A stretch of 64,000 nucleotides of DNA from Bilabrum cf. latius (Eukaryota). Below, one piece after another: positions 3,584 to 14,815 of this stretch. The DNA is taken from assembly GCA_965178125.1 (NCBI GenBank), contig OZ237745.1:310001-374000 (forward strand), given 5' to 3'. The translations under genes were made by a program, and so were the position numbers. The notes under the pieces were generated by a model. That model was not told the DNA's origin. It did no database searches and was given only the letters and a program-made list of their open reading frames with translations. Numbering within the stretch: position 1 is the first letter of the stretch; each line of letters opens with the position of its first letter.

Positions 3584-6500
3584 TTACTAGTACTCTCTCG
3601 CTCTGCTGGAGCCCCCACCCCTCCCTGATCCTCCTCTACGTCGGTCCCAACTACTACTGCCGCTTTCGGCACCTCGACCACTTCTGCTTCGCCCCCGGCC
3701 TCCGCCACGAAAGGCACGCCGACCGCGCCCTCTACCACGGCCTGTTCCACTTGCAGCAGCATCGCTGGCGCCCTACACATGTTCATCTCCTGCCCCAGCG
3801 CCTCCGAGTCGACCCCTCCACCAGCTGGTTGACGGTCTGCTTGAGTGCTGGGCCCGAGGATTGCCTGCTCGGTCAATGGTAACATCCCGGTCCCCGCCTG
3901 TCCGCGCCTGTCCTGGCGATGCTTGACTGCTGTCCGAGCGCTACTGCGAAGAGCTGTGACCTGGCACCTGGTGGCTCGGGAGCATACTGTCCGTTGAGCT
4001 GTGACCTGGTACTTCGGTTGCTCTTGTCGCACCCGCAGGTTCTGACCTCGCACCAGCAACACTTGCACGGATCGAGCGGCTTCCCCGCCGGGATATCTGG
4101 CTGGACGCGCCCGCAAGAGCAGCTTTCCCCCACAGTGTCGTGGGTGCGGGCGCGGGCGCGGGCACGCGTGCAGGCGCTTGTACCCGCGCAGATGCAGATG
4201 CAGGCGCAGGCGCAGGCGCAGGCGCAGGCGTGGTGGGTGCCCGTGCATTGCTGTTTACCAGCACTGCGGTGCAGCCATCCGGGTGCTGGCTGGCGGCAGG
4301 CTCCGCAGCTTTTCTATTAGTGTCCTGCATAAACCTCGGATGCGATGATGACCTCCGACTTCGCCCAGATCCCAAAGCGCTAGGGGAGTCAGCGACAAGC
4401 TTCGGAACGCCAGCCAAGGAGCAAGCCGTGTCCACCACTGCCTCAGCCAACCGATCCATTCCCAGCGATAGCGCAATGAAGATGACGCGAAATGCGTTCA
4501 CGTGTTGCGTCAATCCTCGCTACGCTTTGTTCGGACTGCTCGATGGCGACAGCATGAATGCCGCAACCGAGTGAACGAGGGCATTTCGTAGCTGAAGCTC
4601 AGTGTTCTAGGAAGGAGAGTGGCCAGTCGACCACGACCTGCAGAGACGATCGCGACTGGATGCAGGGGCTGCAATCGGCGGGGGTCTCCAGCTTCCACCT
4701 GTACTGCCTGCACCTAAAGTGGTGTGTCTATCTCTCGGAGTGCTCGCGCCTGACTATCCCCTAGGTACCGGAGACGAAAGCGCTATGCCAGTCGAAGACG
4801 CCCGAGGTGCCGCTCGATGAGACGCTGGAGTCCCCGGAACAACGCCAGGAGAAAAGCCTGCCCGGGCAGCTCCGCCACCCGATGCCACCCCTTGTCTGTG
4901 TGCCTGCGACGAGTCTTCCGTTAGAGTACCCGAAAGGCCAGTCGAGTGCGTGGCAATCCTTAGAGTGGTAGGTGGTGCTAACCGCCGGGGGTCTGCAAGC
5001 ACGTGCTCCTTGAATGAATCCCGGAGCTGCAAAGCTAAATCCAGGTTGAAGTAGTCGTTTGGGTCCTTGACCAGCCACAGATGCGACTCCATGAGCGAGT
5101 CAGCAAACACCGCACTCACTACAGCTGCATTGTCGACACCAAACTCGCCCGTCTTGTGCAGTGCAATCTTGGCGTAGTGCACGTGTTTTCTTGCTCCTTT
5201 CTGGCTGATTTGGATCCTCACAATGCTCCTCACGGCCTTGCACATCATTGACTAGATCCGGGGCATGAGCCCGTCGTCGCCATCCGAGTCCTCGTGACCT
5301 CGGCTACCTTTCTCACGTTCAGTTTCTTTCTGCAGTGACGAATCAACGCGCCTTTCCCGCGGAGGTGTACTGGCGATTGCAATTGCACTGGGACTGCGTT
5401 CGCTCGATGCCTCTAGCAGATGATCGACATTTGGCGGAGGTTGGGATAGCAGACACTTGAGGCTCAGCGTCAGCTACGTATTGCGAGCCAGTGACTCCAG
5501 CATCCGCCGGGGGTCCTACAGGTGCATGAGAAGCAGCTTCCGGATGTCATCACGCCTACCAGCAAGCGCGTGCAGATGCTTGAATGATCTCTGCCTCATG
5601 GCAGCGTCGTCTCGGGATGCCTGCCGGGCCAGTTGATCGGGACTACTGCTCTGCCTGTGAGACTGGGCTTCGGGTGCTGCCTGTGCCTTGAGGCAGTACT
5701 TTGAGCGTGCAATCACCACTTGCGAGTCGCTTGCATTGAGCACCTCGGCGCCATTCAAGAGGTGCTCGGCATCCACAAGCAGGCCCCACTGAAGGCATTG
5801 CATAGCACACTGCGACAGCTTCTTCGTCTTGTCCAAGATCGACCTGTTCAAGAGATCGGGGTCCGTGCCAACGCCCATCACAAACGCAATGTTCTCCTAT
5901 CCGCCCTAGCTGGCCTGCACGAGCCGGCAGCTCTGCTACAGCATCAGAATATGCTGTCGGGACCAGGGGTCAAGGGAAGTGTCGCCTCCGCGGTACAGCA
6001 GGCTCTCAGGCAGGCAGCTCCGGCCGTGACCCCTGCTGGGTTGCCGAGCCAGTAAGACCGGCACCGACTACCCAACATACGCCTGCAGCGTGTGCAGCGG
6101 CAGTTCTGGCTTGTCCCACACCGGCGGTCCCCCATGTGCTTGCCGCAACCCGTTCTGCTTCCTTGGGTCGATGTTCCAAGACTGCAGCTGCGTGAGCCAC
6201 TCACCATACGCGTCTAGCAATGCTTGTTCCCCGGATCGAACGATCCATGCATTAGAGAAAAGTTTCTCGAACTTCTTCTGCATAGCGGATAGCTTGGCTG
6301 GCTACGCAGTTGACGTCATCCTTTTCTCCAAGCGGTAGTAGTTCTTCAAGGTAAGGCTGTGGGTAGGGTCTACTTGCAGTGCCTCCTTATAAATGGCCTT
6401 GCCCTTCGACAGATTGCTCCAGTTCCAGTCCTGCACGGGTCTCGGCGCCAAGTTCAGCTTGCCAATGTTGATTTGGTGGTGCATGTGCTGGTACAGGTTG

Positions 6501-12500: not shown

Positions 12501-14815
12501 TCTGGGGAGCACGGGTCCTCCAACGGAACGGCCTCTGCTGCATCCTACCTCAAAGAGGCGATGGGAATTGCCCTGGCGCTCTAGATCTGCGTCGGCGTCG
12601 TTGCCGGTGTCGGCACGTCCGCACGCAACGCAGAGCGACCCAATGGGCTGCTACTCGACCCAGCCGGCCTTCCACTTCCTTGGCCCAGGCCTGTTCGAAT
12701 CGGTCGCACCGGCAAAGCCGCAGGTTTTTGCGACAGCGCTGGCGCAGCGTCGCTGGCATTGTTGCCTTCCGCGTGCTGGCTTTGTGACGGCTGATCGGTA
12801 TAGTCTTCATACGAATTGATCTGGTCGTCATCACCCGCTAGACTGGCCTATGGCCCACTTGTGCTCGCAGCCGCCGTGTAATCGTGCTCGTCAGCGTCAG
12901 CTGTCAGCGATGCTACTCCGTTCGTGCCCCCAGCACCGATCACAGCCGGTACCTCAGCGTCGTCTGGGTGCTCGAAGCCAGCATACTGATCTTCTGCCTC
13001 ATTGTCAGTGCGCTGTGGTATCCGCTCGCCGGCATCTTTCGATCTGATGCCTGCACCTGAGGCGGCATTGTCTGCTTCCTTGGACTCGTCCTCCTCGCCG
13101 TCCCCGTCGTAAGTGCTGGCCTGGTTTGGCTCTCCCAGGCCGGGATCTGGCAGCCTCATGTGCAGCGGCTTGGCAGGCGTGGCCTTTCCGTACCCACGCT
13201 TAATGGCAACCTAAGCGTTGGCCGCAGCCACAGCGCGCCACGAGGACGACGCACCCGATGCCGTGCGCTGCACGGGGGTGTAGCCAGGTGCTGGAGTGGT
13301 GCTAGGTGTGCTAGGCCGCCCGCGCGCGACTGCATGTCGCGCCCCAGGTGAACTTGGCAACGCGGTGGACTGCCCGACGTCCTGTCTGCCCCCTTTACCC
13401 ATGTCTGCCCCGGCAGCTGCTTGGCTCCTGACCGCTGGGGCACCCTCTCCACCTGTGGATCGGGAGTGCGCTCCACCGTCGCGCTATGCCGTGCCGGTGC
13501 CACCACCGGCAGACGAGACGGCATGGGGATGGGGCCGCGGGGTGCCCACCGGTAGCGGGGTTGCCGCGCCATGCAGGGCAGTGCGGTTGTCCACTCTGGA
13601 CTTCGCTTCGACCCGTGCCCTGGCCGCATTGAAGGCGTGCCTGGCTCGCTGCCTCACCTCTCGGATGTCCATCGCGTGGGGAACAACGACCTGGGCGCCC
13701 ACCTGGTGTTCCCCAAGGTTGAGCCTCCCAAATACCTCCTTCATGAGGGCATGAACGCCTTCGTCGTAGTGCAGGGTGGACACAGCGTCGTCGGATCCGT
13801 ACACCAACGAAGGCCTCGAGACGTGCTTCTGGATGACCTATGGGGGCTGGCTTGGCAGGGACCTTGGGCGTGTCCCGTTGGGGAGAATCCGGAGGGGCAT
13901 CACGGACATTGCCACGAGACGGTATCCGAGGTAGTCTATCAGCATGACGAGCGGGAGCCGGATGACTGTGTTGCAGGCCTGCCTCATCTTGGTCACCCCG
14001 AGCAGCTGCAACTTGCCCTCTTTCGCCTGCGCATCGGGCGATCGGTACAGCTGCCGGTCTCCCTTGAGCTTTTTCGGGCGGCACAGCTTAAACATGATAG
14101 GGCCCACGACGTACTTGAGGCCCCCTGCGATGCCCCCGACGCCAGCTTTGTGGATCGTCCGGGTGGAGCCGAGGGGTGGGGCTCCATCCACGTCACCGTG
14201 CCAGCCCGAGCCAGCCCCCTATGCACCTCCCGATGTGGACCCGGCGACGTGCTCGCTGATAATTATCCTGCCGTACTACATCGCGGCGTGCTGAAAGTCC
14301 TTCACGACTCTCAGCAGCTGCACGAACGAATCGCGCTCGCGAATCAGCTCCAAGTCGCTGATGGAATCCTCTTCTCTGTAGAATGCAGTAGAGAAAAAGC
14401 ACTCATCCGTGGCGGACAAAAATCTATCTATTCTTTGCAACTGTTGCGAGACACTTATCGCTGTTGATGCTCTGTGCTGTGCATGCAAACTGACCGGAGC
14501 GGTACGCGATTCGGCAGCCGAGTACCTGCCAGTCTCAATCCCTGCACCAGACGCAGGACCTGCCCTACGATTAGGCACAGCTTCTGGCGAGATATCAACA
14601 GGCTAATACCGAGGATCCTCCACGCGGCCACCCGGGGAGATTGGCCGTTGCAAGCGTTGTAAGCCTCCTGGCCCACTGCCTGGCACTGGTTGAGCCGACC
14701 TTGACATCTGACTCTGGCGAAAACCAGCAACACCCAATGTTGGTCTCTACGAAGGATCATCGAAGTCATACTCGCTAGCTTCCCTCGGCCCCTCATCCTC
14801 TTCGAAGCCCTGCAT
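3584..14815 (-). CDS. Giant Clu-domain (clustered-mitochondria-like) protein with TPR-like helices and RG-rich tail, ~3,743 aa
   Basis: One frame from ATG 14815 to TAA 3584-3586 with ~35 TAG and no TAA/TGA (gaps translated by hand). Clu-like motifs: DFQHAAM*YGRIIISE, GGIAGGLKYVVGPIMFK, LPLVMLIDYLGYRLVAMS, VYGSDDA, GPGDIEIH, YCLDVARVFPP, RRLRPELV, PLSSDAL, LHSQGANMRHMG, LLLEMVSR. TPR-like segment ~6300-6850. Confidence 0.8.

What the first reader, a model, noticed from the sequence alone, without database searches (positions are those of the whole stretch)
3584..14815. Non-standard nuclear genetic code: UAG is a sense codon, UAA and UGA remain stops
Seen: this 11.2-kb frame has ~35 TAG but no TAA/TGA until a terminal TAA, and TAGs fall inside conserved Clu motifs. 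The same pattern holds for the GT92-like, both ABCA, MACPF, surface-protein and AspH-like genes. Eight TAGs are shared by the two ABCA copies. Traceable gene ends are TGA (461, 15187, 18256, 18916, 36227, 36540, 45931, 47895, 48188, 56770) or TAA (3584, 26270). Established: UAA and UAG are usually reassigned together; UAG-only reassignment is known from few eukaryotic lineages (e.g. the fornicate Iotanema, a rhizarian, some ciliates). Inference: this GC-rich, intron-bearing protist may be an independent case.
Basis: partly seen in the sequence, partly recalled or inferred. Interest (0 to 1): 0.95.

Follow-up and report, generated by a model that had tools for sequence, protein, structure and literature searches.

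The report
UAG read as an amino acid
This stretch of a GC-rich protist genome uses the stop codon UAG as an ordinary amino-acid codon, most likely glutamine, while UGA and apparently UAA still end genes; this is a rare but already known kind of genetic code.

Summary
The minus-strand frame 3584..14926 has 3780 codons with 37 TAG, no TGA, and one TAA, which is terminal. Nine long frames hold 109 TAG, 0 TAA and 0 TGA in 14,763 internal codons. In-frame TAG is as common as off-frame TAG, 7.3 against 7.9 per 1000. Reading only TAG as sense creates the giant frames; reading TAA as sense changes none.

Two runs that show GT..AG splicing, so they hold RNA, carry the TAGs unchanged. In the GT-like gene this is 10 of 11 TAGs. 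An environmental relative (L001) has a CLU orthologue open for 1860 codons with 24 TAG and no TAA or TGA. The code is therefore shared by a clade.

The amino acid is most likely Gln. Pooled partner residues in paralogues and relatives are Q 9, E 5, S 2, P 2, and H, R, T 1 each. One conserved ABCA column has Q in 29 of 40 homologues. Glu is not excluded.

TAA as a stop rests on its absence in frame and on two frame ends. No tRNA gene lies in the window, and eRF1 and the lineage could not be examined. The code type (UAG=Gln; UAA and UGA stop) is known. Whether this lineage is a new case is open.

The parts
3584..14926 (-). Open frame of the giant CLU-domain protein. The first ATG is at 14815. 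It has 37 in-frame TAG and ends TAC TAG TAA.
   Evidence: Pfam CLU matches at E 1.5e-25 and eIF3_p135 at 3.3e-05. The DNA-run contig over 4240-15198 is identical.
461..3004 (-). Glycosyltransferase-like frame with 11 in-frame TAG, ending in TGA.
   Evidence: RNA-run contigs with 0 differences cover 10 of 11 TAGs in X1 and 5 of 11 in X6.
15187..16518 (-). Intronless MACPF gene. Its Met is at 16416. The open frame has 4 TAG and ends in TGA.
   Evidence: RNA-run contigs over 15412-16423 are identical and cover 2 of 4 TAGs.
16551..18258 (+). Expressed MACPF paralogue with four GT..AG introns (16578-16678, 16757-16898, 16964-17070, about 17228-17352). It has 0 TAG and ends in TGA.
   Evidence: The joints appear in X1 and X6 and are absent from DNA run X3. 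The spliced frame is open from Met to TGA. Pfam MACPF matches.
18916..22818 (-). Frame of 1300 codons for a membrane-anchored surface protein with no Pfam match. It has 9 TAG and ends in TGA.
24533..26272 (+). piggyBac-like transposase frame with 6 TAG, ending in TAA.
   Evidence: Pfam DDE_Tnp_1_7 matches at E 3.6e-10.
28478..36229 (+). ABCA transporter copy 1, with 12 TAG, ending in TGA.
   Evidence: Eight TAGs are shared with copy 2. X31 falls in a column where 29 of 40 homologues have Q.
36540..38825 (-). Protein with two MACPF domains, 4 TAG, ending in TGA.
48188..56011 (-). ABCA transporter copy 2, with 9 TAG, ending in TGA.
56770..62361 (-). Frame with an Asp/Asn beta-hydroxylase domain. 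It has 17 TAG and ends TAG AGT TGA.
   Evidence: Pfam Asp_Arg_Hydrox matches at E 3.6e-12.

Best explanation
The window comes from the nuclear genome of a GC-rich (57.5%), intron-bearing eukaryote in which UAG is no longer a terminator. It is an ordinary, fairly frequent sense codon, most likely glutamine, where it would make up 14% of Gln codons. UGA is the main stop and UAA a minor one.

Inferred mechanism, not shown here: a tRNA with anticodon CUA reads UAG but cannot pair with UAA. It is most simply derived from tRNA-Gln(CUG) by one anticodon change and is charged by GlnRS. The release factor eRF1 has lost recognition of UAG but keeps UAA and UGA.

The change is old and complete. TAG occurs in frame at about the frequency of unconstrained sequence, is spread evenly along genes, and is shared with an environmental relative whose CLU protein is only about 39% identical.
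For: Shown for TAG as sense:
- Nine frames hold 109 TAG, 0 TAA and 0 TGA in 14,763 codons.
- In-frame TAG runs at 7.3 per 1000 and off-frame TAG at 7.9 per 1000.
- Reading TAG as sense raises codons in frames of 500 or more from 3403 to 15,512. Reading TAA as sense leaves them at 3403.
- Pfam and PDB alignments run through TAGs.

Shown for TAG in mRNA:
- Runs X1 and X6, from two studies, show four GT..AG joints that DNA run X3 lacks, so they hold spliced RNA.
- Their 0-difference contigs cover TAGs in the GT-like gene (10 of 11 in X1, 5 of 11 in X6), in MACPF (2 of 4) and in CLU (1 of 37 each).

Shown for a clade trait:
- L001 frame +2 is open for 1860 codons to the contig end, with 24 TAG and 0 TAA or TGA.
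- Database fragments of near-identical relatives stop exactly where the window has TAG, at X572, X2875 and X2997.

Shown for Gln:
- Window against L001 at sites with local identity 0.5 or more gives partners Q, Q, H, Q, R, T, S, P, Q. The empirical log-likelihood is best for Q, by 5 nats over H, and E is not among the best six.
- ABCA X31, shared by both copies, sits in the N-terminal motif column with Q 29, K 4, T 3 and others 4 of 40, and E 0.
- TAG pairs with CAG twice in the ABCA paralogues. TAG pairs with Q at X217 and X363 in fragments P0071 and P0072. TAG pairs with Q once in the MACPF paralogues.
- The pooled BLOSUM62 score is Q 49 and E 39 half-bits.

Shown for UAA not being sense:
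- If TAA were a synonym of TAG, 38-46 TAA would be expected; 0 were observed, P < 1e-10.
- Two frames end in TAA.

The tRNA(CUA) and eRF1 mechanism comes from established knowledge, as discussed in passages of PMC5304391.
Against: - Glu is a serious alternative. TAG pairs with GAG or E five times in close comparisons: twice in the ABCA paralogues, once in the MACPF paralogues, and at X236 and X481 in the fragments.
- ABCA column 2216 has D 36 and E 8 of 50, with no Q.
- In close pairs alone the BLOSUM62 score is E 33 against Q 30.
- The five column-based sites do not single out any residue. T scores 1.13, Q 0.80 and E -0.66.
- No tRNA gene lies in the window. eRF1 was not seen and no whole genome is held.
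- The 'RNA' label of X1 and X6 is the tool's guess. I infer RNA from the splicing and from the gene-wise depth.
- CLU itself is barely covered by those runs (1 of 37 TAGs each).
- Termination at TAA is not shown directly. The coding score after the CLU TAA does not differ from the score before it.
- Two of nine frames have a TAG one or two codons before the final stop (P about 0.007). TAG may therefore still end, or once have ended, some genes.
Confidence: 0.72

Rival explanations
1. UAG is a sense codon but encodes glutamate rather than glutamine, read by a tRNA-Glu with anticodon CUA. UAA and UGA are stops.
For: - TAG pairs with GAG or E in 5 of 10 close comparisons, against Q in 4 and S in 1 (list). 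A tenth-plus paralogue pair adds one more Q.
- A T-to-G change is a transversion. As many E as Q partners is easier to explain if TAG to GAG is silent.
- ABCA column 2216 is acidic, with D 36 and E 8 of 50.
- The close-pair BLOSUM62 score is E 33 against Q 30.
Against: - In the more distant comparison with L001, none of 9 partners at well-aligned sites is E, while 4 are Q. H, R and P, which also occur, are one step from CAG.
- The ABCA N-terminal column has Q 29 of 40 and E 0.
- The pooled score is Q 49 against E 39.
- In the window's own NBD1, the position equivalent to column 2216 is Q.
Confidence: 0.18
2. This is an ordinary UAR reassignment. Both UAA and UAG are sense, and TAA is merely rare because the genome is GC-rich. 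Only UGA terminates.
For: GC3 is 0.54-0.79 in the frames. Only two frame ends are TAA. The coding score after the CLU TAA is not clearly lower than before it.
Against: - There are 0 TAA against 109 TAG in frame. A-ending codons make up 16-30% of comparable two-fold boxes, so 21-46 TAA would be expected, P from 1e-10 to 1e-24.
- L001 adds 24 TAG and 0 TAA.
- Reading TAA as sense lengthens no frame of 500 codons or more.
- Off-frame TAA occurs at 3.4 per 1000, so TAA is not absent from the DNA.
Confidence: 0.02
3. The code is context-dependent. UAG is sense inside genes but still terminates at some 3' ends, as stop codons do in Condylostoma or Blastocrithidia.
For: Two of nine frames have TAG one or two codons before the final stop: CLU ends TAG TAA and the AspH-like frame ends TAG AGT TGA. 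The chance probability is about 0.007.
Against: - The same pattern is expected for relic TAG stops that were backed up by a nearby TAA or TGA when the code changed.
- TAG is not depleted toward 3' ends. The last four deciles hold 9, 12, 11 and 11 TAGs.
- The base after TAG shows no avoidance of any letter.
- There are no 3'-end RNA data here.
Confidence: 0.07
4. There is no code change. The TAG-bearing frames are pseudogenes, assembly errors, or segments edited or spliced out of the mRNA.
For: None found.
Against: - Frames of 1300-3780 codons free of TAA and TGA cannot persist by chance. The shuffle maximum was 523 codons.
- Contigs from four runs of three studies agree with the window. The DNA contig over 4240-15198 has 0 differences.
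- RNA-run contigs keep the TAGs.
- Eight TAGs are conserved between ABCA copies that differ at 475 of 2580 codons.
- An independent metagenome contig shows the same pattern.
Confidence: 0.01

Closest known systems
UAG=Gln with UAA and UGA as stops (NCBI table 15 type). It is reported for the fornicate Iotanema spirale, the ciliate Protocruzia tuzeti, and the phyllopharyngean ciliates Hartmannula sinica and Trochilia petrani (passages of PMC5304391 and PMC11687900).
   Same: Only UAG is reassigned. UAA and UGA are absent in frame and stand at frame ends. Gln is the best-supported meaning. The inferred mechanism is a tRNA(CUA) that cannot read UAA.
   Different: - The window is 57.5% GC, with multi-gene chromosomal DNA, introns of 101-142 bases and giant genes. 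By my own knowledge this is unlike ciliate macronuclear DNA.
- TGA, not TAA, is the commonest end here (10 against 2). UAA is called the dominant stop in I. spirale.
- UAG is called scarce in I. spirale. Here it runs at 7.3 per 1000 codons.
- The amino acid is less certain here. The lineage is unknown.
Other UAG-only codes: UAG=Leu in the rhizarian exLh and in TARA ciliate MAGs; UAG=Ser in the green alga Scotinosphaera; UAG=Glu with UAA=Lys in the ciliate PL0344 (passages of PMC11687900; abstract of PMC10553269).
   Same: UAG is uncoupled from UAA.
   Different: - Leu is never a partner of TAG here. There are 0 TAG-to-TTG changes in the ABCA paralogues, and no L among the well-aligned partners.
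- Ser appears twice but scores far below Q.
- Glu remains the second candidate, but UAA is not a sense codon here.
UAR=Gln or UAR=Glu codes (many ciliates, hexamitin diplomonads, some ulvophytes, Blastocrithidia).
   Same: A stop is turned into a Gln or Glu codon.
   Different: TAA is absent from 16,623 in-frame codons that hold 133 TAG.

Membership tests
UAG-only stop-to-sense nuclear code (table 15 type) | In-frame UAG in protein-coding genes, including conserved domains, far beyond chance. | tested here: met
   There are 109 TAG in 14,763 codons of nine frames. TAGs lie inside the CLU, ABC_tran and MACPF matches.
UAG-only stop-to-sense nuclear code (table 15 type) | UAG is retained in mature mRNA, not spliced or edited out. 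| tested here: met
   Runs X1 and X6 show GT..AG splicing. Their 0-difference contigs cover 10 of 11 (X1) and 5 of 11 (X6) TAGs in the GT-like gene, 2 of 4 in MACPF and 1 of 37 in CLU. The RNA nature of these runs is inferred from the splicing and is not on record.
UAG-only stop-to-sense nuclear code (table 15 type) | UAA is not used as a sense codon. | tested here: met
   There are 0 TAA in 14,763 window codons and 0 in 1860 L001 codons, against 21-46 expected in the window if TAA were a synonym of TAG. Reading TAA as sense lengthens no long frame.
UAG-only stop-to-sense nuclear code (table 15 type) | Genes end in UAA or UGA and never need UAG as terminator. | tested here: inconclusive
   Ten frame ends are TGA and two are TAA. 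Two of nine frames have a TAG one or two codons before the end. No 3'-end mapping or C-terminal homology is available for most genes.
UAG-only stop-to-sense nuclear code (table 15 type) | UAG aligns with glutamine at conserved positions. | tested here: inconclusive
   Q is best in the L001 comparison, in the ABCA N-terminal column (29 of 40) and in the pooled score (49 against 39). E equals or exceeds Q in close pairs and at column 2216.
UAG-only stop-to-sense nuclear code (table 15 type) | A tRNA gene with anticodon CUA. | not testable with these tools
   ARAGORN found 0 tRNA genes in the window. Rfam gave 0 matches. No whole genome is held.
UAG-only stop-to-sense nuclear code (table 15 type) | eRF1 N-domain changes that fit loss of UAG recognition. 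| not testable with these tools
Independent origin in a new lineage | Phylogenetic placement outside the lineages known to have this code. | not testable with these tools
   The window holds no rRNA or housekeeping marker. The best named CLU-domain hits are all Amoebozoa at 28-33% identity, and the best ABCA hits are unnamed at 31-32%. This is too weak for placement.

The most novel reading that the evidence does not exclude
This is a so far unreported, non-ciliate eukaryotic clade, made up of the sequenced organism plus environmental relatives seen in metagenome contigs. In it UAG alone was fully captured as a sense codon and drifted to near-neutral frequency. That would be a further independent uncoupling of UAG from UAA. 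A bolder sub-reading is that the near-equal Q and E signals reflect two CUA tRNAs or mischarging, so that UAG is read as both Gln and Glu.
Probability: 0.35. Interest if true: 0.8.

Novelty: new member of a known kind. Interest (0 to 1): 0.66.

Why it matters
Codes in which UAG and UAA have different meanings are few. Passages of PMC11687900 name one rhizarian, one fornicate, one green alga and several ciliates. Each new lineage tests why the two codons are usually coupled and how eRF1 can drop UAG alone.

In practice, any annotation of this genome or its relatives under the standard code will break genes at every TAG. The public protein collections already hold such fragments, for example P0068-P0072, which stop at the window's TAG positions. 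A genome-level, GC-rich case with abundant UAG would also supply the tRNA(CUA) and eRF1 genes that the transcriptome-only cases could not give.

Tried and rejected
- **Whole genome.** None is held, so no assembly-wide code inference, tRNA scan or eRF1 search was possible.
- **RNA genes in the window.** There are none: ARAGORN found 0 and Rfam gathering found 0.
- **Earlier findings of the scan.** Three look-ups, by place, sequence and words, returned nothing.
- **Sequencing runs.** No listed holder is on record as RNA. The RNA nature of X1 and X6 was inferred from joints. Run X8 holds only a repeat at 1-345 and short pieces, so nothing was drawn from it. Parts of CLU without cover in X1 and X6 are not used as evidence.
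- **CLU C-terminal region.** A search of residues 2100-3150 for shorter proteins gave only 3 fragments of the same or a near-identical organism and no distant homologues.
- **Cluster look-up.** None of the 10 proteins looked up returned an organism name.
- **The search for related loci.** It was repeated with the single protein P0222.
- **L001 against L002.** They differ at 3 bases and one 6-base gap, none at a TAG.
- **Protein atlas.** The atlas search with the TAG-free MACPF exon gave only MACPF clusters of mixed taxa, with no lineage hint.
- **Column-based scoring.** Five TAG columns single out no residue.
- **FG-GAP motif.** By my own reading, the TAG in the motif DINGD-X-RVD (frame printed) falls where the protein's other repeats have G. 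I treated it as a degenerate repeat and did not use it.
- **Literature.** Three searches found no paper on a GC-rich non-ciliate with UAG-only reassignment other than those cited. That is no proof that none exists, and supplements were not seen.

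
Full report
**1. The observation**

The window is 57.5% G+C. On the minus strand, the frame 3584..14926 runs for 3780 codons with 37 TAG and no TGA. Its one TAA is terminal, and the last codons are TAC TAG TAA.

When TAG is read as sense, 37 open frames of 250 codons or more appear. I examined the nine long ones. Together they hold 14,763 internal codons with 109 TAG, 0 TAA and 0 TGA. 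In the two off-frames of the same DNA, TAG, TAA and TGA occur at 7.9, 3.4 and 20.9 per 1000 triplets. In-frame TAG occurs at 7.3 per 1000. TAG therefore behaves as an unconstrained triplet in frame, while TAA and TGA are strictly excluded.

As a control I read the window under four codes:

| Code | Codons in open frames of 500 or more | Longest frame |
|---|---|---|
| Standard | 3403 | 1040 |
| TAA as sense | 3403 (no frame changes) | 1040 |
| TGA as sense | 9203 | 1040 |
| TAG as sense | 15,512 | 3780 |

Under TAG as sense the next-longest frames are 2607, 2583, 1863 and 1300 codons. Twenty shuffles read with TAG as sense never exceeded 523 codons.

**2. What the frames are**

Pfam matches:
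- CLU (E 1.5e-25) and eIF3_p135 in the giant frame.
- Two full-length ABCA transporters. The PDB search confirms them, with best hits ABCA3, ABCA7, ABCA4 and ABCA1 at E 1e-82 to 1e-87.
- Four MACPF genes.
- An Asp/Asn beta-hydroxylase domain protein.
- An FG-GAP protein.
- A piggyBac-type transposase.
- A weak glycosyltransferase match.

The domain matches run through TAG codons. The CLU match holds X217, X236 and X363. ABC_tran holds X1037 and X1061. The second nucleotide-binding domain holds X2216.

The two ABCA copies have identical codons at 2105 of 2580 aligned positions and share eight TAGs. These are selected coding sequences, not decayed ones.

**3. TAG is in the RNA**

The window's DNA is held by runs of four studies. 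I laid four runs on 1-20000.

- Run X3 behaves as genomic DNA. Its depth is flat at about 37, and one contig covers 4240-15198 without a difference.
- Runs X1 and X6 come from two other studies. They have gene-wise depth and four joints with GT..AG ends: 16577/16679 (X6 only), 16756/16899, 16963/17071 and 17227/17353. X3 lacks all four.

When the exons are joined at these joints, one open frame runs from a Met at 16551 to the TGA at 18256. It encodes a signal peptide plus a MACPF domain. X1 and X6 therefore hold spliced RNA, although the record does not say so.

Their contigs with zero differences cover 10 of 11 (X1) and 5 of 11 (X6) TAGs of the GT-like gene, 2 of 4 TAGs of the intronless MACPF gene, and 1 of 37 CLU TAGs each. 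Where RNA is seen, the TAGs are neither spliced out nor edited. CLU itself is poorly covered.

**4. Relatives share the code**

Protein collections hold short fragments 85-99% identical to the window's CLU protein: P0068-P0072. Three of them end exactly where the window has TAG, at X572, X2875 and X2997. This is what a standard-code gene caller produces if the relative also has TAG there.

A more distant fragment led to a metagenome contig, L001 (7284 bases, 57.6% G+C). Its CLU orthologue is open for 1860 codons to the contig end, with 24 TAG and no TAA or TGA. It aligns to the window protein at 34-39% identity overall and up to about 75% in the CLU domain. The code is thus a trait of a clade that also occurs in environmental samples.

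**5. Which amino acid**

Close comparisons:
- ABCA paralogues: TAG to CAG twice and TAG to GAG twice.
- MACPF paralogues: Q once, E once, and P once in the signal peptide.
- Near-identical fragments: X217 Q, X236 E, X363 Q, X481 E, X2953 S.

All nine Q and E partners differ from TAG only at the first base. None of the other single-step neighbours (AAG, TTG, TGG, TAY) occurs, so the meaning is Gln or Glu.

The distant comparison with L001 gives partners Q, Q, H, Q, R, T, S, P, Q at sites with local identity 0.5 or more. With a substitution table taken from the same alignment, Q has the best log-likelihood at all three thresholds tried. It leads H by at least 5 nats, and E is either not among the best six or lies 10 nats lower. 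H, R and P are one step from CAG.

Conserved columns give mixed signals:
- X31, shared by both ABCA copies, falls in the N-terminal ABCA motif where 29 of 40 homologues have Q and none has E.
- X2216 falls where 36 of 50 have D and 8 have E. However, the equivalent position of the window's first nucleotide-binding domain is Q.

Pooled BLOSUM62 scores are Q 49 and E 39. In close pairs alone they are E 33 and Q 30. I put Gln at about 0.75, Glu at about 0.2, and anything else at 0.05. Glu partners are expected under Gln, because GAG to TAG is the most conservative way to make a new TAG.

**6. UAA and UGA**

TGA ends 7 of the 9 long frames and three further frames. TAA ends the CLU frame and the piggyBac-like frame.

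If TAA were a synonym of TAG, the A-share of comparable codon pairs (0.16-0.30) predicts 21-46 TAA among the nine frames. None is seen, with P from 1e-10 to 1e-24. L001 adds 24 TAG and 0 TAA.

Termination at TAA is not shown directly. The coding score after the CLU TAA does not differ from the weak score before it.

Two frames have a TAG just before the end (TAG TAA and TAG AGT TGA). The chance probability is about 0.007. I read these as former TAG stops that were backed up by a nearby stop. Residual terminator use of TAG is not excluded. TAG is otherwise spread evenly along the frames, and the base after it shows no bias.

**7. Mechanism**

Shown: UAG is translated through, and UAA and UGA are excluded from reading frames.

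Inferred from established knowledge (passages of PMC5304391):
- A tRNA with anticodon CUA reads UAG but not UAA. It is most simply a mutated copy of tRNA-Gln(CUG).
- eRF1 no longer recognises UAG.

Neither gene is in the window, and no genome is held.

**8. Comparison and novelty**

UAG=Gln with UAA and UGA as stops is the table 15 type. It is reported for Iotanema spirale, Protocruzia tuzeti and two phyllopharyngean ciliates. Other UAG-only codes give Leu (rhizarian exLh, TARA ciliates), Ser (Scotinosphaera) or Glu with UAA=Lys (ciliate PL0344). These come from passages of PMC11687900 and PMC5304391 and from a search listing.

The window differs from I. spirale in two ways. UAG is abundant here and scarce there. 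TGA is the commonest end here, while UAA is dominant there. By my own knowledge it also differs from ciliate macronuclear DNA in composition and gene layout.

The lineage could not be placed. The best named CLU-domain hits are all Amoebozoa, but at only 28-33% identity, and the best ABCA hits are unnamed. Three literature searches found no matching report. Supplements were closed.

I file this as a new member of a known kind. There is a fair chance that it is a further independent origin.

Noticed in passing
window 3584-3592 and 56770-56778: Two of nine long frames have a TAG one or two codons before the final stop (TAC TAG TAA and TAG AGT TGA). The chance probability is about 0.007. They may be relic TAG terminators backed up by a nearby stop.
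   Followed up: partly
window 15187-16416 (-) and 16551-18258 (+): Two MACPF paralogues lie head to head, with their start codons 134 bases apart and 53% identity overall. One is intronless with 3 TAG after its Met. The other has four GT..AG introns, higher depth in the RNA runs, and no TAG. Their C-terminal parts are nearly identical.
   Followed up: partly
window 1-345: This is a high-copy repeat. Its word depth is about 1300 against about 37 for the rest in DNA run X3. It is also present, at 85-95% likeness, in run X8, which otherwise barely holds the window.
   Followed up: no
window 28478-36229 (+) and 48188-56011 (-): The two ABCA genes are an inverted duplication about 12 kb apart, with 2105 of 2580 codons identical. 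Single-base codon differences are 226 synonymous and 166 non-synonymous.
   Followed up: partly
window 24533-26272 (+): A piggyBac-type transposase frame carries 6 in-frame TAG and ends in TAA. The element is either translated under the host's code or decaying.
   Followed up: no
window 40632-45933 (+) and 46464-47897 (+): An FG-GAP protein gene appears to be split over several frames, probably by introns. Frames 40632-41891 and 41892-43808 are in phase and separated by TGA TAG. Frames 46464-47183 and 47184-47897 are in phase and separated by one TGA. No RNA was laid here.
   Followed up: no
proteins P0068-P0072, P0082, P0092 (public collections): Standard-code gene calling has left fragments of this organism's and its relatives' proteins in public collections, cut at TAG codons.
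   Followed up: partly
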